Source: an uncultured Candidatus Saccharibacteria bacterium
GTDB lineage: Bacteria; Patescibacteriota; Andersenbacteria; UBA10190
Reading direction: 5' to 3'
Assembly (NCBI GenBank): GCA_964372635.1
Contig: CAYJQW010000005.1
Coordinates: forward strand, 44 to 64,043
DNA length: 64,000 nt
The notes below the pieces were generated by a model. The model was not told the origin of the DNA, searched no databases, and worked only from the letters and a program-made list of their open reading frames with translations. The first letter of the stretch is position 1. Every line of letters starts with the position of its first letter. Below are positions 46,277 through 63,933 of the stretch, one piece after another. A program made the translations under genes and the position numbers.

Positions 46277-47367
46277 ACAGAAAACTTAAATAGCATAATG
46301 TCACCATCTCGCACAATGTACTCTTTACCTTCATTCCTGACTTTGCCAGCTGAACGTGCTGCCGCATAAGATCCGGCTGTAATTAAATCATCATATGCCA
46401 CTGTCTCAGCCCGGATAAAGCCGCGCTCGAAGTCAGAATGAATTTTTCCAGCGGCCTGCGGGGCTGTGCTGCCCGAGACTACTGTCCAGGCACGGGATTC
46501 AGTCGGGCCGGTAGTTAGAAATGTAATTAATCCCAAGAGTTGATAACTGGCGGCGATCAGACGATCAAGACCAGTTTCTTTCAATCCGTATTCTTGTAAA
46601 AAAGTAAACCTATCCTCGTTTGAGAGTTCTATAACTTCCTGTTCAATCTTTATACTTAAAGGAAGTACGGGAGAAAATATTTTTTTAAACTTCGCAATAG
46701 CCTCATCTTTTTTTATTTGGGTTTCACTGACATTGGCTAAATAAAGCGTTGGCTTAGCTGTTAAGAGAGAAAATGAGCGAATAATCTCTTGTTCTTCTTT
46801 CCTTAATGGCAAATCACGTGCTGGTTTACCAGCGGATAAATGATCCTCAAGTTTTTTAAGCGCCACTATTTTAACTTTCCAGCGTAGTCCATTGGGTGAA
46901 GTGGGGCTGTTTCCTTTAGCATCATGTTCTGCTTGTTGCTTAGCCTTACTCACTAATTCCAAGTCTGCCAAGGCTAATTCTGTTTCAATGGTAGCCACAT
47001 CAGCTTGGGGATCTACTTTGTTATCTACATGAATGGTATTGAGATCTTCAAAAAATCTCACAACATGAACAATTGCATCAACTTCACGAATGTGTGAGAG
47101 GAACTTGTTGCCCAGACCCTCGCCTTTATGTGCCCCCTTGACCAACCCGGCAATATCAACAAACTCGATAGTCGTTGGTGTAATTTTGGCAGATTTAGAC
47201 AGCACTAAAAGTTTTTCTAAACGTTGATCAGGCACCGGCACCACACCCACATTTGGTTCGATAGTGGTAAAAGGAAAATTCGCACTTTCGGCGGCTTGCT
47301 TAGTGAGCGCATTAAATAGAGTACTTTTACCTACGTTAGGTAAACCGACTATTCCTGCTTTTAACAT
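46273..47367 (-). CDS. ychF: Ribosome-binding ATPase YchF (Obg-family GTPase)
   Basis: [22 protein letters not shown], a G-domain, and a C-terminal TGS domain. Confidence 0.9.
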
Positions 47368-47412
47368 TCATTATATGTAGCTCGACCGTCATCTTTCGGC
47401 AAGGGTGCAATG
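47357..47412 (+). repeat. Repeat copy A (degenerate): the real ychF start and upstream region
   Basis: cttttaaCATtcattatatgt...ctttcggcaag shares blocks with copies B and C. CAT at 47365-47367 is the ychF ATG on the minus strand. Confidence 0.55.
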
Positions 47413-47480
47413 GAAAATCAAGGCGCCTATATAAGCCAGTTTGCTAGTCAGTAGAAGTAAGAAAGAGATTAATTGTACTT

Positions 47481-47513
47481 GACCCCTTTTTGACCCCTTT
47501 TTGTCTTTTTGTC
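47481..47513 (+). repeat. Short tandem repeat gaccccttttt x2 plus gtcttttt gtc
   Basis: Direct reading of the sequence between repeat copies A and B. Confidence 0.6.
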
Positions 47514-47517
47514 ATAC

Positions 47518-47573
47518 AACTTTTAACATTTCTTATATGTCGCGGCGGTGTCGTTTCGGCAAGAATCGGAACA
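47518..47573 (+). repeat. Repeat copy B (left boundary of the GC-rich block), ~54 nt identical to copy C
   Basis: acttttaacatttcttatatgtcgcggcggtgtcgtttcggcaagaatcg. On the minus strand it retains ATGTTAAAAG, which mimics the ychF start codons. Confidence 0.65.
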
Positions 47574-47599
47574 ACATCGACCAATGGGAGCAGTAACTA

Positions 47600-49063
47600 C
47601 TATTGCCGTCGAACTATGTTGGCTTCATTCTTCGTAAATATGTTGCGGCTGGCGTGACTGAAGCTGGGGTTGACGTGGTCTAGAAATATCGCTGCTTTCT
47701 GGCTCCTGACGATCGTGTTGGCCGTAAGTGTGTTATTGCGAACGTCGTCTTTTAGGTAAATGCCATAGCGGTTTCCGACCAACTTGTTGTCAAGCACTAT
47801 GTTTTTGTCCGTTCGAAGGTATACGCCACCACGACTGTTAGTGATTGTGTTGTTTCTGATAATCGTGTTTCCCGCTCCTTGATAGAGATACACACCGTAG
47901 TCGCGATTGTTTGCCAGTGTGTTGTATTCGACGAGGTTGCTGGTGGCAGGATCGTTAATGCGGATGCCGTTATTGTTGTCGTACGCCGTATTGTGGCGGA
48001 TGACGTTGTTGCTAGAACGATACACAGCGATTCCGTCCTGGTTGTTGTAAACCGTGTTGTCTTCTAACAAGTTATTGTGTGAGTCTTCATGAATTATAAT
48101 CCCGTGGCCTTGGTTATCATAGGAGATGTTGCCGCGGAAGGTATTACCGCGGCAGCGTTCGGAGACAATGATTCCGTGCTTGCCGTTGTGGTGAGCGCGG
48201 TTGCCGACGATCAGAGCGTAGTTAGAATCATTGTACGGATCGAGACCATAAATCACGTTGCGGTATAGCTCATTGTTAAGCCAGTTCATACCTACAGCTC
48301 CGAAAGTGTAGGTGCCGTAGTAGTTATGATGGAAGGAGCTTCCTCGTACCTCACCGGTCAAGAGGTGTACGCCCGACGTATCATCCGCTCGCCAACTAAC
48401 GCCGTAGTGGCCGCTTATGTTCGGCTGCGAGGCGTATCCAAGATAGGCAAGCTCGGCATCAATAATGTCCATGCGGGCATCCTGACCGGCACGGACATAG
48501 GCGCGGCCATCCTGCCAGCGGTAGTCATAGTCGCGCGCCTGCACGTCCCACGAGGTCAGACGCACACCTTCAATATAGATGCGACCTTGAACGACACGAA
48601 TCCAGACAAATTTTTCCGGTGTGCTGGTTAGCTTGAGGTCGGTTACCTCGGTAACTGTTAGTTCCAGCAGCACATCGCGATTAATCAGCAGATTAGTTTT
48701 TAGCAGCCAACTTGTTAATCCCAGCTGCTGTACGTGGTCGGGGCCAAGTGCGCGGGACAGGTCGGACATAGTCACGCTCGTGCCGGGGCCGCTGACGCTG
48801 ATCCTATCTTTCTCCGGCTCGTAGACAATTGTCGGTTTAGCCGACTGGTTTGTGGTGGCACGCAACGCCGCATCAGTGATGTCGTAACGGTGCAGCGGCA
48901 CGGTGATAAGTTGGTCGGCTACAAATTGCTGCCTCTGATTAACCGCAGTGAGATCAGCCACAGTGGTGTGGTAGCGGCGAGCAATCAGCGACATTGTATC
49001 TCCGTTCTTCCAGACGTAGGGAGCATCCCAGGTCTCGGTTGTGCGGTAAGCAGGCGCGGTCAC
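47600..49063 (-). CDS. LysM + right-handed parallel beta-helix (PbH1 repeat; pectate-lyase/NosD/AlgG-like) protein, no signal peptide
   Basis: N-terminal LysM-like YVWKNGDTMSLIARRYHTTVADLTAVNQ...LITVPL. About 9 PbH1-type repeats (NNQDGIAVYRSSNNVIRHNTAYDNNNGIRIN...). Start overlaps the GT2 stop (ATGA). Confidence 0.65.
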   Translation of the reverse strand: MTAPAYRTTETWDAPYVWKNGDTMSLIARRYHTTVADLTAVNQRQQFVADQLITVPLHRYDITDAALRATTNQSAKPTIVYEPEKDRISVSGPGTSVTMSDLSRALGPDHVQQLGLTSWLLKTNLLINRDVLLELTVTEVTDLKLTSTPEKFVWIRVVQGRIYIEGVRLTSWDVQARDYDYRWQDGRAYVRAGQDARMDIIDAELAYLGYASQPNISGHYGVSWRADDTSGVHLLTGEVRGSSFHHNYYGTYTFGAVGMNWLNNELYRNVIYGLDPYNDSNYALIVGNRAHHNGKHGIIVSERCRGNTFRGNISYDNQGHGIIIHEDSHNNLLEDNTVYNNQDGIAVYRSSNNVIRHNTAYDNNNGIRINDPATSNLVEYNTLANNRDYGVYLYQGAGNTIIRNNTITNSRGGVYLRTDKNIVLDNKLVGNRYGIYLKDDVRNNTLTANTIVRSQKAAIFLDHVNPSFSHASRNIFTKNEANIVRRQ

Positions 49064-50433
49064 CTGGAAAGCGGCCAGGTGGTGGGTGGGTTACTAAGTG
49101 CGGATTCGTCAATACTCTCTGCTCTGACGGTTGTCGGGGTTAACTGGCTTGTCCCGTAAACCACCCCACTTAAAACCACAATAATTACGGCGGTTGCTCC
49201 ATAGGCTGCTATTAACTTGAGCCAGGTGTGTTGTGGCAAGCGGTTTTTATCCCAGCGAGTGATCCAACCTTGCTGGTTCATAGTAATAAGTGCGTATATG
49301 CGCACGAAAGCTGTAATAAAGGTGTACAAGATGTAGATTGGCAAAAGGACGATGTCTGCCGGCCGACGCCGCAGGTGCGACCAGAGGCGAATTAGGCGGC
49401 TGGCGTGCCACCACACCAGCACAATTCCGGCAGCCAACCAATATTCGCGCAGCAGTGCAGCGGCAAAATAAAGTGGTGAGAACAACAGCACAAACGGCTG
49501 AATCATTTGATCGACAATAAAGAACGCCAACGCAGGATGTCGCCAAACCCAGCCCTCCCAAAGGGCCCGCAGGTTGGCTCGCCAACTGTTACGAGTCCAG
49601 CGCAATCGCTGCTTCAGTAGTATTCCCAGTCGGTCAGCGCCCGGCGTAAAGACGCGGGCAGTTTGCTGAAACGCCAGGTGCCAGCCTTTTGCGGCAACCA
49701 GATAGGTGAGACGTTTATCTTCGCCGCTTATGACAGGTTTGCCCCAAAAAGTTTCGTTGACCATATCCGGCAGCACAGGCAAGAGCGTCTGGCGGCGGTA
49801 CAAGGCGGTGCGCCCTGACAAGCAAGTCAGTACGGTGCCGCTTCCGGCTAGATACGGCATTTCATCGGAGTAGCGCAGATCGAGTTGAATATCGAATAGG
49901 GCCTGGGCGACTGTCGTGACCGCTAGCACATTTTGCCGAGTGGCCACGCCACCCACACGGGGGTCACTAAAAGCTGGCAGCGCTTCGGTTAACATAGTTG
50001 GATCCCACAACGTGTCGCTGTCAACTAGAGCAATTATATCGCCGGTAGCCGCCCGCGCGCCGTCGGCCAAAGCCTGTCGCTTACCGGGCGTGGTGGTCAC
50101 AATCAGCTTCGCGGCCGGGTATTGGGCCGCAAACTTACGAAACACCTGCTGGCAGGATTTATCCGTGTGGTCAATGACGGCAATAATCTCGAGTGGGTCG
50201 TTCGCCTGCCAGGAATATAGAGCTTGCTGAAATAATGTAGGTTCTTCGTTATACACTGGCGTGACGACAGACACCGAGCCGCGATACACACCGCGCATCG
50301 GTCGGTAGCGCCGGCCCATCACTTTCTTATATAACCAGACACTCCAACGCCAGATGCCGACAACACTGAGAGGAAAATAAAACGCGATCAGACCTGGGAT
50401 GTCGTGCACTTCAATTGAAAAAAAGTCAGTCAC
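49060..50433 (-). CDS. Processive family-2 glycosyltransferase (hyaluronan/cellobiuronan/cellulose-synthase-like, QxxRW)
   Basis: N-terminal TM helices; GT-A domain with VVTPVYNEEP, DSDT (DxD) and QRLRW; C-terminal TM bundle. Size (457 aa) and topology resemble HasA/Cps3S-type membrane synthases. Confidence 0.75.
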   Translation of the reverse strand: MTDFFSIEVHDIPGLIAFYFPLSVVGIWRWSVWLYKKVMGRRYRPMRGVYRGSVSVVTPVYNEEPTLFQQALYSWQANDPLEIIAVIDHTDKSCQQVFRKFAAQYPAAKLIVTTTPGKRQALADGARAATGDIIALVDSDTLWDPTMLTEALPAFSDPRVGGVATRQNVLAVTTVAQALFDIQLDLRYSDEMPYLAGSGTVLTCLSGRTALYRRQTLLPVLPDMVNETFWGKPVISGEDKRLTYLVAAKGWHLAFQQTARVFTPGADRLGILLKQRLRWTRNSWRANLRALWEGWVWRHPALAFFIVDQMIQPFVLLFSPLYFAAALLREYWLAAGIVLVWWHASRLIRLWSHLRRRPADIVLLPIYILYTFITAFVRIYALITMNQQGWITRWDKNRLPQHTWLKLIAAYGATAVIIVVLSGVVYGTSQLTPTTVRAESIDESALSNPPTTWPLSR

Positions 50434-51400
50434 GGTTGGCCACCAGATTGACTGATAACTCTGCGTCCACCAACTGGGTATTGTGGACTCTAAGTTCTGG
50501 TTGTGGAGCCGGTGAGGCCGCCGTATGTATAGAGTCGTTCAGCGCAATAGTGGCCGCCAGGACGGGCATGTCATAACCATTCTTAGTCGCCCAGGCATAG
50601 AACGCCTGCGTGTCCTTAGGTAAGCACATGCCGTCGAAAGCTCCAAAGTCGCGTGTCCCATAGGTCGCATTCCACATCCCTTCACAGCTAAGAGCGGTTA
50701 GCTTGAAGATGGTCTCATGATCCAGGCCCCGCACCTGACAAATCCGTCGCATTTCATTAAAGAAACTAATCTTAGTGGCGTTGAACAAATTGTGAGCATA
50801 TTTTTGCAGTTCGGCTTCCTGAATAGAAACTCGAACCAAAGGACAGTCGAATCCTTGGTAGAGATCAGCCAACAAGTCGCCCGAGCGTTGGTCAAATTGA
50901 CCGATCACGATCAGCCACGGTTGTCGAAAATCTTCCGCAGCGCTCTTTTCACGTAAGTACTCGGGATTCATGCACAAGCCAAAATCACGTCCTCTAAGTT
51001 TGCCCGACTCTCGCTCAAGAATCGGTGCGATCACTGTCTCAGTAGTTCCGGGCGGGACTGTGCTACGCACGGTTACTAAGTGATAACGATTCATAGTTTT
51101 CAAGCGCTGCCCCAGTTCATATGCCGCCGCTTCGATATGCGCCAGGCTAATGCTCCCCTCGGCCGTGGGTGTGGAAACGGTAAGAAGAGAAATATCTGAG
51201 TCGTCACCAGCTTTTCTTAGCGACTGCGGCAAGTAGCAGCGCAAACCTCGCTGCTGGAGGTGTGTAACCGTGGCTGCATTCACGTCAACGAACTGAACAG
51301 TGTAGCCTTGTCCTAGTAATCCCAGACCAGTGGCCTGGCCGACGACACCAGCACCGATAACGGAGATAGTTAGTTTTTTTGTCTGGTGTTTTCTATGCAT
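50426..51400 (-). CDS. UDP-glucose/GDP-mannose dehydrogenase family protein (short, 324 aa)
   Basis: N-terminal Rossmann ISVIGAGVVGQATGLGL and catalytic-Cys block GAFDGMCLPKD (compare GGSCFPKD). Overlaps the GT2 start. Confidence 0.65.
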   Translation of the reverse strand: MHRKHQTKKLTISVIGAGVVGQATGLGLLGQGYTVQFVDVNAATVTHLQQRGLRCYLPQSLRKAGDDSDISLLTVSTPTAEGSISLAHIEAAAYELGQRLKTMNRYHLVTVRSTVPPGTTETVIAPILERESGKLRGRDFGLCMNPEYLREKSAAEDFRQPWLIVIGQFDQRSGDLLADLYQGFDCPLVRVSIQEAELQKYAHNLFNATKISFFNEMRRICQVRGLDHETIFKLTALSCEGMWNATYGTRDFGAFDGMCLPKDTQAFYAWATKNGYDMPVLAATIALNDSIHTAASPAPQPELRVHNTQLVDAELSVNLVANRD

Positions 51401-51478
51401 AACAACCGACTAATTTAACATGGCGGCTTTAAAACCTCAAGTATTACTCTTAAATGGATAGGTGTTGCAGGTACTACC

Positions 51479-53440
51479 CTATTGCCTCAAGGCTTCAATT
51501 GGCTCCAACTTAGCCGCCCGCAGCGCTGGATATGTGCCTGATATCAGACCGATCAGGCCACCTAAAAGAGGGGCGAGCAATGGAATACTTGGATCTAAAA
51601 CAGGTGTCCAGACTTGGTAGGCTCCTACAGCTACTACTACCAGAGTGCCTAGACTGGCGCCAATGATACCTCCGATGATTCCCATGGAAGTACTTTCGAT
51701 GAAAAACTGTGTCGCAATATGACGGCGCGTGGCACCGAGCGAGCGGCGCAGTCCGATTTCACCGATGCGCTCAATCACAGATATTAGAGTTATATTTCCG
51801 ATACCAATTGCTCCCACAACAAGGGATAAGCCGCCTAGTAAGAGCATTAGTATATTTAATTCACTTTGGATGGCCTCGCGCACGCGTTTGGGCTCAGGTG
51901 GCGAGACAATCTTTAATGTTTTTGGATCATCCGGTCGTAGAGCCAGCGGAGCTTGGCGTGAAATCAACGTTGCGGCACCAATTCTGGTTTCAATGATTAC
52001 CGAGCTAGGACTTGATAACCCAAAATCACGCCTTGCTGTTTCTTCGGGAATAATGACTGAACCGAGTAGGTCTGGCTGTCGACCGACACCGTCCAAGATT
52101 CCCATCACGAGGTATATCTTATCCCCAATGGCGATCGCTGGCAGATGCTCAACACCGACAATATTAAGCCGCTCGGCTGCCGAAGGACCCAGCACGGCAA
52201 CACGATCTCCTCGCTGGGAGTGACCCTTATCCGGCAAACGACCATTTTTCAGGTTGGCTCGTACAGTCGCAAACAATTCAGGCGACGCAGCTTGAACAGC
52301 CAATTTGAAATCCGTCTGACGGCGCGGGTCAGTAATAGTTGATGCACTAACCAGGGCGTCTTGGCTAGCTACCGGGCTCAATGTTCCGGCGGTAACTACG
52401 CCATTAAGGCGAAGCAGACGCTGAGCAGCATCCCAAGGGATGACTTTATTTTGTTGGCTAGCCAGACTGGCGCGAGGCGTCACCATGATTTCAGTGGCAG
52501 CTAGTTCATTGAAAGTTCCAATAATACGATTACTTGCTGTGCGTGATACTCCAACGGTGGCGACCAAAGCAGCGATACCAATCACTACCCCCAGGCTAGT
52601 CAGTGCGGTGCGAGTTGGATTGGCGAACAGACCGGCGATTGCTTCACTTACGAGGTCATGAATAGTTATGCCTGAGCGTGAAACCACATTCGCCGACCGG
52701 CTAGTACCGGCGGAGTTCATGGTGGTCAGCATAGTTTTTTCGCTCGACTGCTCAATTGATTTGCCATCTATGATTTCGAGACGTCGGCCAGCGCGCGCGG
52801 CCACATCTTCATCATGAGTAACGACCACTATTGTTAGCCCCTGTTGATGCAAGTTCTCCAGCAGCTCAAGGAGGTTGGCGGCTGACTTCGAATCTAAGTT
52901 ACCAGTTGGTTCGTCACACAATAACAGATCCGGAGTACCAATCAAGGCGCGGGCAATGGCAACCCGTTGTTTTTGTCCACCTGATAATTTGGTTGTCAGA
53001 AAATCAGCCCGGTCACCTAGGCCGACTTGATTAATAGCGGCTAAAGCCCGTTCACGCCGGCCGTGGTGCGATTGCTTTCGGTACACTTCTGCTAGCATCA
53101 CATTTTCGACTACTGATTTGTGTGGCAATAGGTGAAACGATTGAAAGACGAAGCCAATGTGTCGACTGCGCAGTCCAGCCCGCTCGACTTCGGTTAACTT
53201 CGTGGTATCGATGCCGCGGAAAAAATATTGACCGGCTGTTGGCCGATCTAAGCAGCCAATAATATTTAAGAGTGTTGATTTACCCGAGCCTGATGGGCCA
53301 GTGATTGCTAACCACTCGCCTGTCTCAAGCCGAAAATCAACCCCGGCCAGGGCTTGGACAGGCGCGTCAGTACCGAACTGACGACCAACGTTACTGAGCA
53401 AAAGTATCGTTTCAACGGGTGAACTTTTTGATGTTTTCAT
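51479..53440 (-). CDS. MacB-type ABC transporter (fused ATPase + FtsX-like permease)
   Basis: Walker A GPSGSGKST; signature LSGGQKQRVAIARAL; Walker B LLLCDEPTGNLD; then a large extracytoplasmic domain and 4 TM helices (FtsX fold). Confidence 0.8.
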   Translation of the reverse strand: MKTSKSSPVETILLLSNVGRQFGTDAPVQALAGVDFRLETGEWLAITGPSGSGKSTLLNIIGCLDRPTAGQYFFRGIDTTKLTEVERAGLRSRHIGFVFQSFHLLPHKSVVENVMLAEVYRKQSHHGRRERALAAINQVGLGDRADFLTTKLSGGQKQRVAIARALIGTPDLLLCDEPTGNLDSKSAANLLELLENLHQQGLTIVVVTHDEDVAARAGRRLEIIDGKSIEQSSEKTMLTTMNSAGTSRSANVVSRSGITIHDLVSEAIAGLFANPTRTALTSLGVVIGIAALVATVGVSRTASNRIIGTFNELAATEIMVTPRASLASQQNKVIPWDAAQRLLRLNGVVTAGTLSPVASQDALVSASTITDPRRQTDFKLAVQAASPELFATVRANLKNGRLPDKGHSQRGDRVAVLGPSAAERLNIVGVEHLPAIAIGDKIYLVMGILDGVGRQPDLLGSVIIPEETARRDFGLSSPSSVIIETRIGAATLISRQAPLALRPDDPKTLKIVSPPEPKRVREAIQSELNILMLLLGGLSLVVGAIGIGNITLISVIERIGEIGLRRSLGATRRHIATQFFIESTSMGIIGGIIGASLGTLVVVAVGAYQVWTPVLDPSIPLLAPLLGGLIGLISGTYPALRAAKLEPIEALRQ

Positions 53441-54990
53441 TATTTAAAACCAATGACAATCAGCTGACTTGGTGTCAGCGTTCCGGTGACGGGAGTGACT
53501 TCCACAAAACCATTGGCCGACAAACCGGTTTTCACAGTGACATACTGTAGAGATCCATCTTCGTCTACTTGTACACGCGAGGTACCATCAGCGGCCAGGG
53601 AGACAGCACTGATAGGTACGGCGATCACTTCATCCTTAGTTGATTCAATCGGAATGGTGAGTCGTAGTGATGTGCCTTCCAGAGTGGTGGGAGTTGTATC
53701 AACTGTTACTTCAAAATAGACGTGGAAGCCATCCACTCCGTTGGTGCCGGGCGCAGCGGCGACTTTAGTCACGATACCGGTTGCTTCTATGCCTAAGTCC
53801 GCCTCGTCTATCTTCACTTTCATGTCGGGTTTTACCAGCGCGGCTTCGGCAAGCGGCAGAGAAGCATCAATCACGACTTGATTATTAGTGACTGTTAACA
53901 CTGGTCCTTTCGCAACTGCGCCAACGGCAACGTCAACTTGTTTGATGCGCGCTGGCAGCGAGTTTACAAACATGACTTCATTGGCAGGTACTTGAATACC
54001 CGTTTTGCTTTGGACACGACTTAGATCGGACGCAATGCGTGCGGCTAACGCCTTGGCCACTACGGCTTCACGTTGTCCAATCTGCTGCGCATTCAGGGCC
54101 GTCTGTACGGCAATAGTGCCTTCTTGCCGTAATGCTTTAGCAGAGGCTTCAGCAGCCTTAAAATCGGCGGTGGCTTTAGCTTTTTCTTCATTAGTTGCAC
54201 TTAAGTCCCCAGTGACTTTAAGGTACGTCGCCTTTTTTGCTTCAATGTCAGCAGTCGCGGCGATATTAGTGCCGGCTGCTTTATCACGGGTAGCCGCAAC
54301 TAACTTAGGCCCAGCGGCCAGTGTGGCGATGAACTGATCTTTCTCTGCCACGGCCAACTCCTCGATTAGGGTGTGAATTTCCTTGAGTTGCTCTGGAGTT
54401 GGCTCAAATGGTTGCCAATTGGATCTGGCGTACCATGCAGCTACAGCGGCGGCGGTTTGGGCATCGTACCGCCCATCGATGATTCCGGGATAAAAACCCA
54501 GTCGTTTAAGGCCCTGTTCTAATTGCATTATATCTTCACCAATAGTACCTGGAGTCATATCCCGAAACGCGGGGATGGCACCTTCCATGACAAACACCGG
54601 ACGGTCACCAATAGTGAAAGCGACCTGACCTTCTTTAAATTGCGCATTGGGCAAGGGAAGGGTAGTGATCAGTGTCTCGAGCGGTTTGGCGGCCGAGTGA
54701 GGCAGCGATATTGTTTGTGGCAGACCGAAGCGAGCCGTGCCGCGAGTCACAATATCAGAGGTAAGCACGCGTTTCTCGATCGGAACCAGAATCGGCGAGG
54801 CTAGTGGCGGGGCCACTTCGGCAGCGATTTCGGCTGGCGATTTAATACGTGATCCAACTAGCCAACTACCCAGCGCCAACACAACAACTGCTCCGAGAAT
54901 TAGACTGATGAGCTTTGACCTTTTTTGCGTGTGTGCCAGTTCAGCGATAGGTTTCGGTATCAGACGAAACAATGTCAGTTTTATATTCAT
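53440..54990 (-). CDS. HlyD/MacA-family periplasmic adaptor (membrane fusion protein) with inserted peptidoglycan-binding domain
   Basis: N-terminal TM; PG_binding_1-like LEQGLKRLGFYPGIIDGRYDAQTAAAVAAWY; long Ala/Lys-rich coiled-coil hairpin; C-terminal beta-barrel/MP domains. Start overlaps the MacB gene. Confidence 0.7.
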   Translation of the reverse strand: MNIKLTLFRLIPKPIAELAHTQKRSKLISLILGAVVVLALGSWLVGSRIKSPAEIAAEVAPPLASPILVPIEKRVLTSDIVTRGTARFGLPQTISLPHSAAKPLETLITTLPLPNAQFKEGQVAFTIGDRPVFVMEGAIPAFRDMTPGTIGEDIMQLEQGLKRLGFYPGIIDGRYDAQTAAAVAAWYARSNWQPFEPTPEQLKEIHTLIEELAVAEKDQFIATLAAGPKLVAATRDKAAGTNIAATADIEAKKATYLKVTGDLSATNEEKAKATADFKAAEASAKALRQEGTIAVQTALNAQQIGQREAVVAKALAARIASDLSRVQSKTGIQVPANEVMFVNSLPARIKQVDVAVGAVAKGPVLTVTNNQVVIDASLPLAEAALVKPDMKVKIDEADLGIEATGIVTKVAAAPGTNGVDGFHVYFEVTVDTTPTTLEGTSLRLTIPIESTKDEVIAVPISAVSLAADGTSRVQVDEDGSLQYVTVKTGLSANGFVEVTPVTGTLTPSQLIVIGFK

Positions 54991-55023
54991 AGCCCCGATG
55001 TACCCCTTTTACTCCACCTGTCT

Positions 55024-55995
55024 TTAGTTTTGTGGTGCGCCGTAAAGTTCAGTTTCAACCTGAACTACAACCGGCTCAATGAATTCCTCCGCGCAGTCAA
55101 AATCGGCGACGGCGATCGCTCGTTCCTCGCCTTGCAGCTCAGTTAACACCTTTTGGATATCAGGAGCTAAAGTGCTTGGATCAGCCTCACCAGTAATACT
55201 AGTCAGGCGATCTTGAAGGTCTTTTTCAATTTCTTCGGGGTTATTGTAGTTAAAACCTGCTTTCCGGATGCAACTCGCCCACTTGGCAGTGGCAGCGATT
55301 ACTCGCGAATCTTGCGCAATCAGCACATCGCCTGGGTTAGTGTAAGCGCCGCCTAACTGATCGCGGTTAAACACTTGTTCGATGGCGGTGCGTGTACAAC
55401 CACCCACTTGCGAGAAGTCTTCAGCTTCAAGAGAGACGGCAAACGTGGCAGTCGTGTTTTCACCAAAGAGGGAACGGTTGTAAGCTACCTGGTTACTGGC
55501 CGACAAGTTAATAAACAGTTGTACATTCTGGCTACCTAAGCCAATAGTGGCAGCGTGGTCAGCACCAGAAAGCTGGGGGGCAGTACCAAGCTTAGTATTC
55601 TGCGTGGAAATACCGTAGCCGAATTGGGAACGGAATTCATCATCAGTTAATCCGGCAATTTTTTTATCGGCGTCCATGGATTTTCGCACGGTGAGATAAT
55701 CGGCCGGGATATATTGAAAACCAGTGGTCTTCATACAACTGGCAATACCTTGTTCAACTGCCTCGATATTCTTCACCAACTCGGCTTTGGTCAAACCAAA
55801 TTCTTCGGCTCCTGGCAATATAGCTGCAGGGGATTGTGAGATAGTGGCGGGCGATGGTTTGCGGCTAGGCCAAAGATTATCGTTAGGACTGACAATATAG
55901 GAAATACCAGCGATGGTGGCGATCACGAGCACAGTCAGTAATAACGGTTTCTTTTTCATCTCTACACATCTAGCACAGACCATCTGACTAGTCAA
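55024..55995 (-). CDS. Exported hypothetical protein with two Cys-containing internal repeats (likely start at MKKKPLLL, near coordinate 55959)
   Basis: Signal/TM KKKPLLLTVLVIATIAGISYIV. Repeated blocks C.KTTGFQYIPAD and CIRKAGFNYNNPEE. First gene of the minus-strand operon. Confidence 0.4.
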   Translation of the reverse strand: MTSQMVCARCVEMKKKPLLLTVLVIATIAGISYIVSPNDNLWPSRKPSPATISQSPAAILPGAEEFGLTKAELVKNIEAVEQGIASCMKTTGFQYIPADYLTVRKSMDADKKIAGLTDDEFRSQFGYGISTQNTKLGTAPQLSGADHAATIGLGSQNVQLFINLSASNQVAYNRSLFGENTTATFAVSLEAEDFSQVGGCTRTAIEQVFNRDQLGGAYTNPGDVLIAQDSRVIAATAKWASCIRKAGFNYNNPEEIEKDLQDRLTSITGEADPSTLAPDIQKVLTELQGEERAIAVADFDCAEEFIEPVVVQVETELYGAPQN

Positions 55996-56041
55996 CGTAC
56001 AGAACTTGTGCTACTTTTGTCGATAAGGAGGGGTCCTTCAT

Positions 56042-56542
56042 GTGCATAGTTGTATGATGCGTATCTCCTTCTTCATTATTTCTATTACTCTAACCGCAGT
56101 TAGTCTGGCTGGGGTTTTTTTATATTACTTTCTACAGTTGCAGTCGGCGTCTTTGACAGATAGTTCCTTTATTCAGAGCGATACTAAATCAGCTCAGATT
56201 ATACCGATTAAAGATACTGAGCTAAATCATGTGGTGTTGACAGAGCGGGCGACACAGCGACTGGCCATTGCGACTGTTCCAGTTCAGGTTGCCACTTCAG
56301 CTCAGGCTAGACAGGAAAATGGCCGCACAATTATTCCGTATTCGGCAGTGATTTACGATCCGAACGGAGCTACCTGGACATACACGAATCCAGAAACTTT
56401 TGTGTATGTCAGGCATCCCATCACGATTGTCTATATTGAAGAAGACTTTGCTGTTCTCAGCAGCGGTCCACCATCTGATACGAGGGTGGTGACGGTCGGG
56501 GCGGCTGAACTGTTTGGAGCTGAGTTTGGTGTCGGCAAGTAA
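56042..56542 (+). CDS. Minimal membrane-fusion-protein-like adaptor (TM + beta-barrel/membrane-proximal domain only; no alpha-hairpin)
   Basis: N-terminal TM; C-terminal IIPYSAVIYDPNGATWTYTNPETFVYVRHPITIVYIEEDFAVLSSGPPSDTRVVTVGAAEL matches the MFP C-terminal pattern (VP..AV...G..VYV...V..G.VV.G). Immediately precedes two RND genes. Confidence 0.45.
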   Translation: MHSCMMRISFFIISITLTAVSLAGVFLYYFLQLQSASLTDSSFIQSDTKSAQIIPIKDTELNHVVLTERATQRLAIATVPVQVATSAQARQENGRTIIPYSAVIYDPNGATWTYTNPETFVYVRHPITIVYIEEDFAVLSSGPPSDTRVVTVGAAELFGAEFGVGK

Positions 56543-56554
56543 CGGATATACGTT

Positions 56555-59500
56555 GTGGCTATACCAGTGATCCGTCATATAGTTGAGACAAGTTTGCGGC
56601 TTCGGTTTCTGATGGTGGCGATTATTATTGTCTTGTTGCTAGTTGGCGTAAGTGAGTTTCCGGAAATACCAGTCGACGTGTGGCCTGAACTCAACCCGCC
56701 GTTAGTAGAAATTCAAACTGAAGCACTTGGGTTGGCTGCGGCTGAAGTGGAATCCTTAATCACCGTTCCGATGGAGGCGGATTTACTCAACGGTATTGCC
56801 TTCCTAGACCACATCACGTCGGAGTCGGTGGCTGGTTTATCGTCTATTCGCCTCATTTTCGAACCTGGGACTGATCCGATGATAGCCCGGCAATTAGTGG
56901 CTGAACGATTAACGCAAGCGTTTGCATTGCCCAACGTGTCAAAACCACCAATGATGCTGCAGCCTCTGTCGAGTACAAACCGGGTGATGATGATTGGTCT
57001 TTCTTCGCAGGATTTATCGTTAATTGATTTATCTGTGCTGGCGCGATGGAATATTAGGCCACGCTTAATGGGTGTTCCGGGAGTTGCAAACGTGGCAATT
57101 TGGGGTCAGCGGGAACAGCAGTTACAGGTACAGGTTGATCCAGAACGACTTTATCGGCAAGGCGTCACTCTCCAACAAATCATTGAAACTGCTGGCAATG
57201 CTCTGTGGGTATCGCCACTTAGTTTTTTGAATTCCTCGACACCTGGCACGGCTGGTTGGATAGATACACCCAATCAACGACTTGGTCTCCACCATGTCTT
57301 ACCCATTAAAGGGCCAGAGGACCTATCTAAGGTATCAGTCGCAGGTAGCAGTGGGCTGCGTTTGAGTGATGTGGCCACAGTAGTGGAAGATCATCAACCG
57401 CTAATTGGTGATGCGGGGTTAAGTGATCAGGCGGGTCTCCTGCTGGTCATTGAAAGGTTTCCTGAAGCTAACACATTGGAAGTAACCGATGATGTGGAAG
57501 AAGTACTCGACGCTCTACAACCTGGTCTTACTGGGGTCGAGATCGACACCATTTTCCGCCCGGCCAGTTATATCGAGCTAACGATCTATAATTTGGTTGT
57601 TGCTGCGCTGTTGGCTGGCGTGTTTATTGGGCTGGCGTTATTTACTTTTCTTGATGCGTGGCGCGTGGTGTTCATTGGCGTTCTGTCGATTCTTGGAGTA
57701 CTACTCATCGCTGGGCTGATTCTGTTACTACACGGGACGAGTATCAATGCGATGATGATTGTAGGAATTGTAATTGCCATTACTATCGTCATCGATGATG
57801 TAGTGCTTGACAGCGAAACAACGGTGCGGCGACTACGTGAATCAGCTGATATGAATCGTGATCAGTCGCTGCAGTCAGTGATTGTATCTGCCACGCTGCA
57901 GCTGCGTCGTCCGTTAAGCTATGCGACAATAATCATGTTACTAATTGTGTTGCCGGCCTTCTTCTTGCCTAATCCCGTCGGCGCATTTTTCCGGCCACTA
58001 GCGTATGCATATATTTACGTGTTGCTTGCAGCTGTAGTAGTGACACTAGTTATCACGCCGATGTTAAGTCTGATACTATTGTCAACTTCGCGGCGTACCC
58101 ATGACGCACCGGCGATCATCATACTGCTCTCACAACGTTACCGAAATTTACTCACGCGTTGGCTTGGTGTCCCTCGCCGCGTGACTAGCGCGGTTGTGAT
58201 CACTGTACTTGGAGGTCTATTACTACTGCCACTTATTACCGTGTCTTTGCTGCCCGTGTTTAAGCAGACGGATCTACTAGTGCGGCTGAAAGGTATACCT
58301 GGCACGTCGCAACAGGAGATGAACCGGATGGCAGTTTCGGTCAAGCAGGAGGTGCGATCGATACCGGGCATTCGGAATGTCGGATTTCAGGTCGGGCGAG
58401 CCATAACCGGGGATCAAGTCGTTGGTATCAATTCAGGTGAGCTGTGGATAAGCCTTTCTCCTACGGCGGTGTATGAGGCAACAGTGGATAGAGTTCGAAA
58501 AGTGGTTGATGGCTACCTTGGTTTTGCGAGCGCGGTACAGACCTATCAACCAGACAAAGCCGAACAAATATTATCTCGCGCTGAGCAAGACCTGGTTGTG
58601 CGCGTGTACGGTCATGAGTTAGATGAACTCCAGCGTCAGGCCGAGATAGTACAGCAGCGCCTTGCAGAGATTGAAGGTATCAGAGATGTACATGCACAAC
58701 TGTCGGACCTGGAGCCGCAAGTGGAAATAGAGGTGGATTTAGCGGCGGCCGAACGCTATCAAATTAAACCTGGTGATGTCCGTCGGCAGGCGAGTACGTT
58801 GTTGTCTGGTTTGCAAGTGGGTAATCTATTTCAAGATCAGAAAGTCTTCGATGTTGTCGTCTGGGGTGTACCTGAATTACGCCAGAATTTGACTAAACTA
58901 CAGGAACTTCAGATTGACACGCCGGGCGGCCAGGTGCGCTTGAGGGAATTAGCCGATGTGCGCATTGTGCCCTCACCCACCATTATTATACGTGACGCTG
59001 TCTCGCGTTATATTGATGTTGTTGGGAGCGTGCATGGTCGGGATGCACGAGCGGTGAAACGTAATGTCACCAAGGTTCTCTCAAGTCTAGTGTTTCCCTT
59101 AGAGTACCATGCAGAAGTACTGGATGAATCGGCTATACAGCAGCGAGCCGAGTGGCGCACCTTAAGCGTGGTGGGTGCGGTCTTAGTGGCGTGTTTACTT
59201 TTGCTCCAGGCGGCTTTTCAAAATTGGAGGGTAGCCGTACTCTTTTTTATCAGTGTGCCGTTAGCACTTGTTGGCGGTCTGGCGGCAGCGATACTTGGTG
59301 GCGGTACGCTTACAATCGGTTCAGTAGGTGGATTCTTGGCGGTGTTAGCAATTGTGGTTAGAAGTGGTGTGGTGCTGCTCGATCACTGGCAACAACTCGA
59401 ACAGCAGGCAGGCATGCCTTTTGGCTTAGCCCTTGTCTTGCGTGGTAGCCAAGAGCGACTCACACCAATTCTCATGTCTGCCAGTGCGATCGGTCTGGCG

Positions 59501-59647
59501 ATGCTACCACTTGTGCTGTTTGGTACTATTCCTGGGTACGAACTACTGCATTCACTGGCGATTGTTACTATTGGTGGCTTAATTACCTCGACTCTCTTTC
59601 TTCTCTTTCTTCTGCCAGCGTTGTACTTGCGGTTTGGGAAGTCTTGA
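56555..59647 (+). CDS. RND efflux transporter, HME (CzcA/CusA-like) type, paralog 1
   Basis: 1030 aa, 12-TM RND architecture. N-terminal block IFEPGTDPMIARQLVAERL resembles CzcA IFKDGTD..ARQLV. TM4 has IVIDDVVLDSE. Confidence 0.8.
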   Translation: MAIPVIRHIVETSLRLRFLMVAIIIVLLLVGVSEFPEIPVDVWPELNPPLVEIQTEALGLAAAEVESLITVPMEADLLNGIAFLDHITSESVAGLSSIRLIFEPGTDPMIARQLVAERLTQAFALPNVSKPPMMLQPLSSTNRVMMIGLSSQDLSLIDLSVLARWNIRPRLMGVPGVANVAIWGQREQQLQVQVDPERLYRQGVTLQQIIETAGNALWVSPLSFLNSSTPGTAGWIDTPNQRLGLHHVLPIKGPEDLSKVSVAGSSGLRLSDVATVVEDHQPLIGDAGLSDQAGLLLVIERFPEANTLEVTDDVEEVLDALQPGLTGVEIDTIFRPASYIELTIYNLVVAALLAGVFIGLALFTFLDAWRVVFIGVLSILGVLLIAGLILLLHGTSINAMMIVGIVIAITIVIDDVVLDSETTVRRLRESADMNRDQSLQSVIVSATLQLRRPLSYATIIMLLIVLPAFFLPNPVGAFFRPLAYAYIYVLLAAVVVTLVITPMLSLILLSTSRRTHDAPAIIILLSQRYRNLLTRWLGVPRRVTSAVVITVLGGLLLLPLITVSLLPVFKQTDLLVRLKGIPGTSQQEMNRMAVSVKQEVRSIPGIRNVGFQVGRAITGDQVVGINSGELWISLSPTAVYEATVDRVRKVVDGYLGFASAVQTYQPDKAEQILSRAEQDLVVRVYGHELDELQRQAEIVQQRLAEIEGIRDVHAQLSDLEPQVEIEVDLAAAERYQIKPGDVRRQASTLLSGLQVGNLFQDQKVFDVVVWGVPELRQNLTKLQELQIDTPGGQVRLRELADVRIVPSPTIIIRDAVSRYIDVVGSVHGRDARAVKRNVTKVLSSLVFPLEYHAEVLDESAIQQRAEWRTLSVVGAVLVACLLLLQAAFQNWRVAVLFFISVPLALVGGLAAAILGGGTLTIGSVGGFLAVLAIVVRSGVVLLDHWQQLEQQAGMPFGLALVLRGSQERLTPILMSASAIGLAMLPLVLFGTIPGYELLHSLAIVTIGGLITSTLFLLFLLPALYLRFGKS

Positions 59648-59656
59648 ACCTAAGTT

Positions 59657-62842: not shown

Positions 62843-62917
62843 GCTTGTCGAGGAACAGGGTTAATCTTAAGTGCGTCGAAGAAGATTGACACCTCATCTG
62901 GCCAGCAGTATCGTGAC

Positions 62918-63811: not shown

Positions 63812-63873
63812 CGTGAAACTTTTGCCTGTGCGCAGGCGAAAGGATTAGTTTGGATATTGGTATGCAAATACCA

Positions 63874-63933
63874 AACTTTAACATTTCTTATATGTCGCGG
63901 CGGTGTCGTTTCGGCAAGAATCGAACTAACATC
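63874..63933 (+). repeat. Repeat copy C (right boundary of the GC-rich block)
   Basis: aactttaacatttcttatatgtcgcggcggtgtcgtttcggcaagaatcg is identical to copy B over ~54 nt. Two small hairpins precede it (gcctgtgcgcaggc; ttggtatgcaaataccaa). Confidence 0.65.

What the first reader, a model, noticed from the sequence alone, without database searches (positions are those of the whole stretch)
47600..51400. UGDH -> processive GT2 synthase -> LysM/beta-helix: compact synthase-dependent glucuronic-acid polysaccharide module; beta-helix protein lacks a signal peptide
Gene order and overlapping stops and starts (50426-50433, 49060-49063) indicate one operon. The dehydrogenase precedes the QxxRW membrane synthase, mirroring Cps3D-Cps3S (pneumococcal type 3 cellobiuronic acid capsule) and HasB/HasA (hyaluronan) logic. 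A single enzyme polymerises and exports a GlcA-containing polymer. The third gene encodes a LysM motif plus about 9 PbH1 beta-helix repeats, the fold of polysaccharide lyases, hydrolases and C5-epimerases such as AlgG. LysM implies an extracytoplasmic, wall-bound location, yet there is no signal peptide. The ORF starts by a 4 nt overlap right after the synthase's last TM helix and a 35 aa tail. One attractive possibility is that it is, or was, a C-terminal extracellular extension of the synthase separated by a frameshift. Alternatively it is exported non-classically.
Basis: partly seen in the sequence, partly recalled or inferred. Interest (0 to 1): 0.65.

Follow-up and report, generated by a model that had tools for sequence, protein, structure and literature searches.

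The report
Split synthase–epimerase polysaccharide gene cassette
This is a broken copy of an uncharacterised cassette, common in Patescibacteria and Chloroflexota, in which a hyaluronan-synthase-like membrane enzyme normally carries its own extracellular LysM and AlgG-like polymer-modifying domain; here a one-base frameshift has cut that domain off and left it without an export signal.

Summary
The three minus-strand genes and their 8-nt and 4-nt overlaps are real.

- **Fusion is the norm.** In 71 of 82 related synthase genes from GTDB species genomes, the GT2 synthase and the LysM/beta-helix protein are one ORF of about 910-1000 aa. A one-base insertion anywhere in window ~49063-49093 restores a 944-aa ORF colinear with those fusions. 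A second assembler reproduces the split without any indel.
- **The orphaned domain looks compromised.** It has no signal or anchor, whereas every complete standalone paralogue in relatives has one. Its catalytic DPHD motif reads DPYN. It departs from 16 of 92 near-invariant family positions, more than any relative.
- **The "UGDH" is not canonical.** It belongs to a conserved two-domain subfamily that lacks the nucleotide-sugar-binding C-terminal domain. It scores equally against AlgD and an archaeal UGDH.
- **Folds.** The synthase model matches class I hyaluronan synthases. The beta-helix model matches AlgG.
- **Context.** The cassette has foreign base composition and lies in a block bracketed by repeats of the ychF 5' end.

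The glucuronic-acid polymer is not established. The cassette family appears undescribed; this copy is a degenerate member.

The parts
50426..51400 (-). Short two-domain sugar 6-dehydrogenase (324 aa): NAD-binding and central domains with catalytic CLPKD, but no C-terminal NDP-sugar-binding domain
   Evidence: Pfam PF03721 and PF00984 only; TIGR03026 matched over positions 2-298 of 413. All top 120 homologues are 289-360 aa with the same two domains. Best PDB hits are AlgD 1MFZ (161 bits) and Pyrobaculum UGDH 3VTF (160 bits).
50612..50626 (-). Catalytic Cys motif CLPKD of the dehydrogenase (Cys259)
   Evidence: Translation check; aligned to GSCLPKD of GDP-mannose dehydrogenase.
49060..50433 (-). 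Hyaluronan-synthase/NodC-like membrane-integrated processive GT2 synthase (457 aa) with DSD, GEDKR, QRLRW and GWITRW motifs
   Evidence: Pfam and NCBIfam hits. AF2 model pLDDT 91.8. Best solved folds are Chlorella virus HAS and Xenopus HAS1, TM-score 0.70-0.74 over the whole length. Motif coordinates checked.
49252..49269 (-). GWITRW, equivalent to the cytosolic WGTR gating loop of hyaluronan synthases
   Evidence: phmmer maps window residues 114-398 onto CvHAS 174-463, placing W390 on CvHAS W454. The gating loop is cytosolic, between IFH3 and TMH5 (PMC11750622).
49144..49224 (-). Last transmembrane helix of the synthase, the only TM helix after the gating loop; it takes the chain from inside to outside
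   Evidence: AF2 helix 404-430; KD15 2.57. Flanking charges follow the positive-inside rule, as read from the sequence.
49063..49093 (-). Interval in which both reading frames are open. A one-base insertion (or a -1 shift) anywhere here fuses the synthase to the LysM/beta-helix ORF. It contains the tract AACCCACCCACCACC.
   Evidence: Frame translation. In-silico insertion gives a 944-aa ORF aligned over residues 15-940 with the 974-977 aa fusions of L005, L006 and L008.
47600..49063 (-). Orphaned LysM plus AlgG-like beta-helix ORF (487 aa from GTG; 464 aa from the ATG at codon 24); no signal peptide or anchor
   Evidence: AF2 pLDDT 89.8. Best solved fold is AlgG 4NK6, E 3e-18, followed by AlgE4 and AlgE6.
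48890..49018 (-). LysM domain (residues 16-58)
   Evidence: Pfam PF01476, 26.6 bits against a cutoff of 20.9. Beta-alpha-alpha-beta arrangement in the model: E11-17, H24-30, H35-42, E52-58.
47669..48736 (-). Right-handed parallel beta-helix (residues about 110-465)
   Evidence: Pfam Beta_helix and NosD; regular three-strand coils in the AF2 model.
48230..48241 (-). DPYN in place of the catalytic DPHD motif (H277Y, D278N)
   Evidence: Translation. Of 89 relatives, 71 have DPHD and none has DPY. The motif aligns to DPHD of AlgG. The motif's His is the proposed proton abstractor (PMC4444821).
47517..47578 (.). Left boundary repeat of the GC-rich block that holds the cassette (copy B, derived from the ychF 5' end and promoter)
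63872..63933 (.). Right boundary repeat (copy C, 92% identical to copy B)

Best explanation
**What the cassette is.** The three genes are one copy of a conserved, uncharacterised cassette found mainly in Patescibacteria and Chloroflexota. It has two parts.
- A short two-domain sugar 6-dehydrogenase.
- A single polypeptide of about 950 aa: a HAS-like GT2 synthase (N-terminus out, GT domain in the cytoplasm), one extra TM helix after the cytosolic gating loop, a linker of about 48 aa, a LysM domain and an AlgG-like beta-helix on the outer face.

**Inferred mechanism of the intact cassette.**
1. The dehydrogenase supplies a uronic-acid donor.
2. The synthase polymerises it and threads it through its own channel.
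3. The tethered beta-helix acts on the emerging polyuronate by C5-epimerisation or beta-elimination through its DPHD site.
4. LysM holds the module on the peptidoglycan or on a GlcNAc-containing product.

**What happened in this genome.** A genuine one-base frameshift in the linker (window ~49063-49093) has split the gene.
- The upstream product is still a complete synthase ending in an extracellular tail, like the naturally short forms of about 420-430 aa in Chloroflexota. It is probably still active.
- The downstream LysM/beta-helix ORF can only be made, if at all, by re-initiation at the overlapping GTG or at the internal ATG.
- That product would stay in the cytoplasm. It has lost the catalytic His and is diverging at conserved sites. 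The modification step is therefore most likely lost or altered.

**Shown:** architecture, fusion in relatives, frame geometry, folds, motif change, absence of an export signal.
**Inferred:** substrate, chemistry, activity of each part, and that the split is a mutation and not a regulated event.
For: **Fusion is the norm.** The fused genes P0005/L001 and P0242/L004 each sit directly after a 302-307 aa short dehydrogenase. Of 82 close GT2 relatives in GTDB species genomes, 71 are single GT2+LysM/beta-helix ORFs. The short dehydrogenase is directly adjacent in 54 of these. Pfam confirms the order GT2, LysM, Beta_helix.

**Geometry.** The beta-helix frame is -1 relative to the synthase frame and is open for only 9 codons upstream of the GTG. 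A one-base insertion gives a 944-aa ORF aligned in one piece (45% identity, about 860 bits) with 974-977 aa fusions. The linker would be 42 aa, against 27-62 (median 48) in relatives.

**Not an assembly indel.** Logan contig L003 (run ERR3478686) matches window 47539-49560 with 1 mismatch and 0 gaps, and has the same GTGA overlap.

**Topology.** The GT2 model matches CvHAS and XlHAS1. The WGTR-equivalent loop is cytosolic and a single TM helix follows it.

**Orphan status.** There is no hydrophobic N-terminus, unlike every complete standalone paralogue.

**Degeneration.** DPHD has become DPYN, a change seen in none of 89 relatives. The beta-helix departs at 16 of 92 near-invariant positions (relatives: median 2, maximum 11). 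The synthase departs at 7 of 106 and the dehydrogenase at 2 of 74. The only difference between the two assemblies is a nonsynonymous change at a conserved Tyr of the beta-helix.

**AlgG affinity.** NCBIfam AlgG 104.6 bits; PDB 4OZY and 4NK6; Foldseek 4NK6 E 3e-18.
Against: - The downstream ORF is still intact over 487 codons and keeps strong third-position bias (GC3 0.62 against GC 0.52). That is more than expected for a long-dead pseudogene, so it may still be translated and selected, or the split is recent and the substitutions predate it.
- His-to-Tyr in a lyase/epimerase site need not abolish catalysis. Tyr serves as base or acid in some polysaccharide lyases (my own knowledge, not checked here).
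- The MAG and the Logan contig may derive from the same reads, so population heterogeneity at the site is untested.
- No activity, substrate or product is known for any member of the family.
- It is unexplained how a dehydrogenase without the NDP-binding domain could make a nucleotide uronic acid.
Confidence: 0.65

Rival explanations
1. Functional gene fission. The LysM/beta-helix protein is made separately by coupled re-initiation at GTGA, and it has a new role. That role is either cytoplasmic (for example acting on a precursor or binding the synthase) or follows non-classical export, possibly through the adjacent MacB/HlyD-like ABC system.
For: The ORF is intact over 487 codons with coding-like GC3. 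The stop and start overlap. A MacB-type transporter and a PG_binding_1 adaptor lie 79 nt upstream on the same strand. The altered DPYN site could reflect a changed function.
Against: LysM and AlgG-type domains are extracytoplasmic in every relative, either fused after a TM helix or carrying a signal peptide. The MacB/HlyD genes accompany the cassette in only 1 of 79 loci. The GTG has no Shine-Dalgarno at a usable distance (read directly). The protein is the most divergent member at conserved positions.
Confidence: 0.13
2. Sequencing or consensus artefact, or minority allele. In most cells the gene is an intact 944-aa fusion, and the frameshift exists only in the assembled consensus.
For: The interval contains short C runs (AACCCACCCACCACC). 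Other MAG loci show similar isolated breaks: the dehydrogenase is split in L070 and the beta-helix in L052.
Against: Two assemblies made with different software agree base for base across the junction, with 0 gaps in 2022 nt. The runs are only 3 nt long. The beta-helix also carries independent signs of relaxed constraint, DPYN and 16/92 deviations, which an indel artefact would not produce.
Confidence: 0.1
3. Programmed -1 recoding. A fraction of ribosomes slip in the CCCACCC tract and make the full synthase-epimerase, so the cell produces both a bare synthase and a modifying synthase.
For: The required shift is -1 and the two frames overlap by 11 codons. P-site slippage of tRNA-Pro on C_CCA is conceivable.
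Against: There is no canonical X_XXY_YYZ heptamer in the interval (read directly). No stimulatory RNA structure was found: MFE z-score 0.27. No other family member among the 79 loci is split at this position, so there is no conservation of a recoding site.
Confidence: 0.07

Closest known systems
Class I hyaluronan synthases (Chlorella virus HAS, vertebrate HAS1-3, streptococcal HasA) with HasB UDP-glucose dehydrogenase
   Same: Single membrane-integrated GT2 that polymerises and translocates. DxD, G(D/E)D(K)R and QxxRW motifs and a W-x-T-R gating loop are present. These are the best whole-length structural matches (TM-score 0.70-0.74). A dehydrogenase gene of the same superfamily lies directly upstream.
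   Different: Only 17-19% identity. One N-terminal and three C-terminal membrane helices instead of two plus four, so the C-terminus is outside. The normal form carries an extracellular LysM and beta-helix. The dehydrogenase lacks the UDP-binding domain that HasB has. The product is unknown.
Alginate pathway: AlgD (GDP-mannose dehydrogenase), Alg8/Alg44 synthase, AlgG periplasmic mannuronan C5-epimerase
   Same: Same three-step logic: sugar 6-dehydrogenase, GT2 polymerase, then polymer-level modification by a DPHD beta-helix. The beta-helix's best sequence and fold matches are AlgG. The dehydrogenase's best solved match is AlgD, tied with an archaeal UGDH.
   Different: The GT2 is HAS/NodC-like; no Alg8 model appears among its NCBIfam hits. 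No Alg44, AlgK, AlgE or AlgX genes were seen in the ORFs examined next to the cassette. The epimerase-like domain is covalently tethered to the synthase and not a free periplasmic protein. AlgG scores 104.6 bits against an equivalog cutoff of 700. In this window DPHD reads DPYN.
Pneumococcal type 3 capsule Cps3D-Cps3S and NodC chitooligosaccharide synthase
   Same: Compact arrangement of dehydrogenase plus a single processive GT2 (Cps3D/Cps3S). NodC is the best NCBIfam model for the GT2 (103.9 bits).
   Different: Far below the NodC equivalog cutoff of 550. Neither system has an extracellular modifying domain. Cps3D is a full three-domain UGDH (my own knowledge).
Unnamed fused GT2-LysM-beta-helix proteins of Patescibacteria/Chloroflexota MAGs (e.g. 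MDO8497323.1, MEK7557157.1, annotated only as 'glycosyltransferase')
   Same: True homologues: synthase 50-58% identical, beta-helix 35-44%, dehydrogenase 45-61%, with the same gene order.
   Different: They are single ORFs with an intact DPHD. The window copy is split, lacks the catalytic His, and sits in a compositionally foreign block.

Membership tests
HAS/NodC/chitin-synthase-type processive GT2 synthases | GT-A domain with DxD, G(D/E)DR and QxxRW motifs | tested here: met
   DSD 138-140, GEDKR 237-241 and QRLRW 275-279. All are invariant in 94 homologues.
HAS/NodC/chitin-synthase-type processive GT2 synthases | Membrane-integrated fold with interface helices and a channel, resembling solved HAS | tested here: met
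   AF2 pLDDT 91.8. Foldseek hits 9YQ5, 7SP7 and 8SMP with E 1e-17 to 3e-19 and TM-score 0.70-0.74.
Class I hyaluronan synthase (strict) | Two N-terminal plus four C-terminal TM helices with a cytosolic C-terminus; WGTR(G) gating loop | tested here: not met
   One N-terminal helix (9-40) and a single helix (404-430) after the gating loop. The motif is W-I-T-R.
Class I hyaluronan synthase (strict) | Product is hyaluronan, made from UDP-GlcNAc and UDP-GlcA | not testable with these tools
   No biochemical data exist for any member. Identity to solved HAS is 17-19%.
UDP-glucose/GDP-mannose 6-dehydrogenase family | N-terminal NAD-binding domain and central domain with catalytic Cys, Lys and Asn | tested here: met
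   PF03721 (1.3e-29) and PF00984 (2.2e-18). TIGR03026 scores 199.5 bits against a cutoff of 189.8. CLPKD and KYAHN are present.
UDP-glucose/GDP-mannose 6-dehydrogenase family | C-terminal NDP-sugar-binding domain (PF03720) | tested here: not met
   The protein ends 66 residues after the catalytic Cys. All 65 cassette-linked homologues end 11-92 residues after it. The top 120 homologues lack PF03720. Full-length forms appear only below about 190 bits.
UDP-glucose 6-dehydrogenase (specifically, versus GDP-mannose dehydrogenase) | Closer to characterised UGDH than to GMD; equivalog score reached | tested here: inconclusive
   AlgD 1MFZ scores 161.1 bits and Pyrobaculum UGDH 3VTF 160.3 bits. AglM scores 178 against a cutoff of 670, and TuaD 127 against 700.
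AlgG/AlgE mannuronan C5-epimerases | Right-handed beta-helix fold superposable on AlgG | tested here: met
   Foldseek 4NK6: E 3e-18, TM-score 0.72 normalised to the target.
AlgG/AlgE mannuronan C5-epimerases | Catalytic Y-G-x-D-P-H-D motif | tested here: not met
   The window has YGLDPYND. Relatives have DPHD in 71 of 89.
AlgG/AlgE mannuronan C5-epimerases | NCBIfam equivalog score (NF038177, cutoff 700) | tested here: not met
   104.6 bits.
AlgG/AlgE mannuronan C5-epimerases | Extracytoplasmic location via a signal peptide or secretion signal | tested here: not met
   No hydrophobic N-terminus: KD15 maximum 0.36.
LysM domain | Pfam PF01476 above the gathering score, and a beta-alpha-alpha-beta fold | tested here: met
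   26.6 bits against 20.9, though only profile positions 4-27 are matched. Secondary structure in the model is E11-17, H24-30, H35-42, E52-58.
Fused GT2-TM-LysM-beta-helix synthases with adjacent short dehydrogenase (unnamed cassette) | Colinear homology of all three parts and the same gene order | tested here: met
Fused GT2-TM-LysM-beta-helix synthases with adjacent short dehydrogenase (unnamed cassette) | Synthase and beta-helix encoded in one ORF | tested here: not met
   Split by a -1 frame change at 49060-49063.

The most novel reading that the evidence does not exclude
The intact cassette is an undescribed minimal polyuronate machine. One polypeptide synthesises, exports and, through a covalently tethered AlgG-type domain at the channel exit, epimerises or trims an alginate-like or glycosaminoglycan-like polymer. 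It is fed by a new class of sugar 6-dehydrogenase that works without the canonical nucleotide-binding domain. It would be a main surface-polymer pathway of many Patescibacteria (CPR) and some Chloroflexota. The window shows a laterally acquired copy in the act of losing the modification step.
Probability: 0.35. Interest if true: 0.75.

Novelty: new variant of a known kind. Interest (0 to 1): 0.55.

Why it matters
- **A new arrangement for synthase-dependent polysaccharide systems.** Known systems such as hyaluronan, cellulose, alginate and PNAG keep polymerisation and polymer modification on separate proteins. In this family the two are fused through an extra transmembrane helix, so modification would be coupled one-to-one to each emerging chain.
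- **A lead on the Patescibacteria cell surface.** The family is widespread in Patescibacteria, whose cell surface and host-attachment chemistry are largely unknown.
- **An unexplained dehydrogenase.** It comes with a dehydrogenase subfamily whose way of recognising its substrate is unexplained.
- **Practical annotation value.** For this window, the third gene should be annotated as the detached, probably non-exported C-terminal part of the synthase, and the first gene should not be called UGDH without qualification.

Tried and rejected
- **Programmed frameshifting.** No canonical slippery heptamer, and no unusual downstream RNA structure (z 0.27). Kept only as a low-probability rival.
- **Export by the adjacent MacB/HlyD-like pump.** These genes occur near the cassette in 1 of 79 loci. 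Rejected as a conserved partner.
- **Accidental truncation of the dehydrogenase in this genome.** Rejected: the short form is the rule in a large clade.
- **NosD-like assignment of the beta-helix.** The Pfam NosD hit is a generic beta-helix match. NCBIfam NosD scores 45.5 against a cutoff of 300, and the best folds are AlgG and AlgE.
- **Identifying the organism.**
  - Exact look-ups of housekeeping proteins gave unnamed singleton clusters.
  - The window's genome is not among the best 80 GTDB hits.
  - No tRNA or Rfam match was found in the window.
  - The host taxon stays unknown.
- **Exact-sequence contig look-ups.** Look-ups of the GT2 and of the 487-aa ORF found nothing on record.
- **Literature.** Searches for Patescibacteria/CPR with C5-epimerase, hyaluronan synthase or alginate, and for LysM with C5-epimerase, found nothing relevant.
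- **Promoter and terminator scan of 47.3-55.2 kb.** Fewer or no more sites than in shuffled sequence, so it does not bear on the operon question.

Full report
**1. What is in the sequence**

Three minus-strand ORFs occupy 47600-51400.
- A 324-aa dehydrogenase at 51400..50426.
- A 457-aa GT2 at 50433..49060.
- A 487-aa LysM/beta-helix protein at 49063..47600, counted from a GTG.

The first pair overlaps by 8 nt (GTGACTGA) and the second by 4 nt (GTGA).

Pfam and NCBIfam support the domain calls.
- The GT2 hits Glyco_tranf_2_3 and Glycos_transf_2, with NodC as the best NCBIfam model (103.9 bits).
- The third protein hits LysM (26.6 bits, cutoff 20.9), Beta_helix (1e-37) and NosD. Its best named NCBIfam model is mannuronan C5-epimerase AlgG (104.6 bits, far below the 700-bit cutoff).

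The maximum 15-residue hydropathy in the first 80 residues is 0.36.

The "UGDH" has only the NAD-binding and central domains and stops 66 residues after its catalytic Cys (CLPKD). It has no C-terminal nucleotide-sugar-binding domain.

**2. The split gene is normally one gene**

Homology searches first turned up two fused relatives.
- P0005 (MDO8497323.1, at least 842 aa).
- P0242 (881 aa).

In both, a closely related synthase runs through a GWITRW motif, one more TM helix and a linker into LysM and the beta-helix. Both lie directly after a 302-307 aa short dehydrogenase (L001 and L004).

A scan of one genome per GTDB species found 439 relatives. I analysed the 79 best loci.
- Of 82 synthase genes, 71 are single ORFs of roughly 910-1000 aa holding both the GT2 and the LysM/beta-helix parts. 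Pfam confirmed the domain order on examples.
- The short dehydrogenase is immediately adjacent in 54 of the 71 fused genes (44 upstream, 10 downstream) and in 9 of the 11 unfused genes.
- Hosts are mostly Patescibacteria: Levy-, Davies-, Roizman-, Curtiss-, Woese-, Ames-, Andersen-, Morani-, Nomura- and Taylor-bacteria, and WWE3. Chloroflexota also appear: Caldilineaceae, Ardenticatenaceae and Dehalococcoidia.

The geometry in the window fits a broken fusion.
- The beta-helix frame is -1 relative to the synthase frame and is open for only nine codons upstream of the GTG.
- Inserting one base anywhere in about 49063-49093 yields a 944-aa ORF. It aligns in a single segment (residues 15-940, about 45% identity, about 860 bits) with 974-977 aa fusions.
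- The reconstituted linker between the last TM helix and LysM would be 42 aa. In relatives it is 27-62 aa, median 48.
- The naturally unfused Chloroflexota synthases of about 420-430 aa end within a few residues of that helix. The window's 27-aa tail is therefore a linker remnant and not an ancestral terminus.

Locus L002 shows a different relic of the same fusion. Its LysM/beta-helix gene starts inside the synthase's IFH3 and WxTRW region, with no GT2 domain left.

**3. Is the frameshift real?**

An independently assembled Logan contig from run ERR3478686 (L003, 2022 nt) covers window 47539-49560. It has one mismatch, no gaps and the same GTGA overlap.

An assembler-introduced indel is therefore unlikely. 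Whether the reads are the same as those behind the MAG is unknown. I found no sign of programmed recoding: there is no X_XXY_YYZ heptamer in the 33-nt interval, and the downstream RNA folds no better than shuffled sequence (z 0.27).

**4. Topology**

The AlphaFold model of the synthase (pLDDT 91.8) is most similar over its whole length to Chlorella virus and Xenopus hyaluronan synthases (TM-score 0.70-0.74).

phmmer aligns window residues 114-398 with CvHAS 174-463, which puts W390 of GWITRW on W454 of the CvHAS WGTRG gating loop. That loop is cytosolic. It inserts into the active site and connects IFH3 with TMH5 (PMC11750622).

HAS has two helices after the loop. This protein has one (404-430). 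The chain therefore ends outside, consistent with the positive charges before the helix and the acidic tail after it.

It is not met.

**5. State of the orphaned domain**

The model of the third protein (pLDDT 89.8) has a beta-alpha-alpha-beta LysM followed by a regular beta-helix. Its best solved match is AlgG (4NK6, E 3e-18), followed by the AlgE4 and AlgE6 A-modules.

In AlgG and AlgE the His of the Y-G-x-D-P-H-D motif is the proposed proton abstractor (PMC4444821).
- Seventy-one of 89 related beta-helix domains have DPHD, and none has DPY.
- The window has YGLDPYND, that is H277Y and D278N.

At positions at least 90% conserved among relatives:

| Protein | Window deviations | Relatives, median | Relatives, maximum |
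|---|---|---|---|
| Beta-helix | 16 of 92 | 2 | 11 |
| Synthase | 7 of 106 | 2 | 13 |
| Dehydrogenase | 2 of 74 | 2 | 8 |

The single base difference between the two assemblies is a nonsynonymous change at a conserved Tyr of this domain.

Every complete standalone beta-helix paralogue next to related synthases has a hydrophobic N-terminal signal or anchor. The window protein does not.

Against a long-dead pseudogene, the ORF is unbroken and keeps strong third-position bias (GC3 0.62). Either the split is recent or some selection persists.

**6. The dehydrogenase**

The short form is not an accident of this genome.
- All 120 best homologues (50-61% identity) are 289-360 aa with the same two Pfam domains.
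- All 65 cassette-linked copies end 11-92 residues after the catalytic Cys.
- In an exhaustive search of 50%-identity cluster representatives, roughly the first 75 hits are almost all short. Canonical proteins of 420-460 aa appear only below about 190 bits.

The catalytic residues are retained (alignment). The best solved relatives are P. aeruginosa GDP-mannose dehydrogenase AlgD (161 bits) and Pyrobaculum UGDH (160 bits). Typical bacterial UGDHs score 35-104 bits.

The nucleotide sugar, and even whether the substrate is a nucleotide sugar, is therefore undetermined. The title's "glucuronic-acid" is an assumption. An AlgD/AlgG-like mannuronate reading is equally compatible with the evidence.

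**7. Mechanism proposed**

For the intact cassette I infer the following steps.
1. Cytoplasmic oxidation of a hexose C6.
2. Processive polymerisation and translocation by the HAS-like synthase.
3. Action of the tethered DPHD beta-helix on the emerging polyuronate at the outer face, by C5-epimerisation or beta-elimination, which share their first step.
4. LysM anchoring to peptidoglycan or to a GlcNAc-containing product.

For this window, the synthase and dehydrogenase are probably functional. The modifying domain is detached, not exported and catalytically non-canonical. The polymer, if made, would be unmodified. I put this at 0.65. The rivals are:
- functional fission or non-classical export (0.13);
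- consensus artefact or minority allele (0.10);
- programmed -1 recoding (0.07).

**8. Context**

The cassette is compositionally foreign. GC3 is 0.53-0.62, against 0.34-0.41 in the housekeeping genes of the window. It lies at the edge of a 16.3-kb block with GC 0.50-0.54, against 0.43 elsewhere.

The block is bracketed by 62-nt repeats (47517-47578 and 63872-63933, 92% identical). These are copies of the ychF start and promoter region.

A second NCBI contig (L085) shows that a 220-nt unit, 96% identical to 47349-47568, follows just beyond the window end. The Logan contigs break at these repeats, so the host-to-island linkage rests on the MAG assembly.

The MacB-like and HlyD-like genes upstream are not conserved partners.

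**9. Comparison and novelty**

The parts are recognisable: a HAS/NodC-type synthase, a UGDH/GMD-family dehydrogenase, an AlgG-type beta-helix and a LysM domain. What appears undescribed is the arrangement.
- A synthase covalently fused through an extra TM helix to an extracellular polymer-modifying domain.
- Its pairing with a dehydrogenase that lacks the NDP-binding domain.

Database entries say only "glycosyltransferase", and four literature searches found nothing.

I classify it as a new variant of a known kind. The window holds a degenerate, laterally acquired member.

Noticed in passing
window 47349-47578 and 63872-63933; L085 2048-2267: The GC-rich 16.3-kb block (47579-63871) is bracketed by repeats copied from the ychF start and promoter: copy A at the true ychF start, and copies B and C, 92% identical over 62 nt. 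A second assembly (L085) shows a further 220-nt A+B unit, 96% identical, about 115 nt past copy C. It includes a pseudo-ychF start, MLKVGIG. This looks like site-specific insertion, possibly serial, at the ychF 5' end. Pfam found no integrase in the block. Logan contigs break at the repeats, so host-to-island linkage rests on the MAG assembly alone.
   Followed up: partly
window 50426-51400; all cassette loci L001, L004-L083: A large, diverse clade of UDPG/GDP-Man-dehydrogenase-family proteins (285-340 aa) lacks the C-terminal nucleotide-sugar-binding domain yet keeps the catalytic Cys, Lys and Asn. They are almost always next to the HAS-like synthase. How they bind their substrate is unexplained.
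   Followed up: partly
L004 9997-14221; L009, L037, L048, L062: Where the fused beta-helix of a relative has itself lost the DPHD motif, a second, signal-peptide-bearing standalone beta-helix gene lies next to it. That second gene has DPHD in four of the five loci, the exception being L062. This suggests repeated hand-over of the catalytic role to a free paralogue.
   Followed up: partly
L011, L020, L028: Some Patescibacteria loci carry two tandem fused synthase genes flanking one short dehydrogenase.
   Followed up: no
L002 9877-11719: A LysM/beta-helix gene whose N-terminus is a relic of the synthase (IFH3-like helix, SWVTRWDK, TM helix) with no GT2 domain upstream. This is a different way of breaking the same fusion, and one that keeps the membrane anchor.
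   Followed up: partly
L070 38-991; L052 1329-4252: Other MAG loci show single frame breaks inside the dehydrogenase (L070) or inside the beta-helix (L052). Either real decay or MAG errors occur elsewhere in this family.
   Followed up: no
window 51479-54990 and 56555-62842: The same GC-rich block holds a MacB-type ABC transporter, a 516-aa adaptor-like protein with a PG_binding_1 domain, and two tandem AcrB-family RND pumps (1030 and 1061 aa). The ORFs at 55024-55995, 56042-56542 and 62918-63811 have no Pfam match.
   Followed up: partly
window 1-64000: There is no tRNA gene and no Rfam family at gathering score in 64 kb. Every housekeeping protein that was found on exact look-up (RpoB, RpoC, YchF, SSB; RecA was not on record) is an unnamed singleton at 90% identity. 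The host appears to be a poorly sampled lineage, and I could not name it.
   Followed up: partly
window 48133-48135 (codon 311 of the beta-helix ORF) versus L003: The only difference between the MAG and the Logan contig over 2022 nt is Tyr311 to His, at a position where the relatives I inspected by eye have Tyr (one has Phe).
   Followed up: no
record titles (e.g. L005, L007, L008): Many 'binchicken' MAGs titled 'uncultured Gammaproteobacteria bacterium' carry this typically patescibacterial cassette. The organism labels of those records look like placeholders and should not be used for taxonomy.
   Followed up: no
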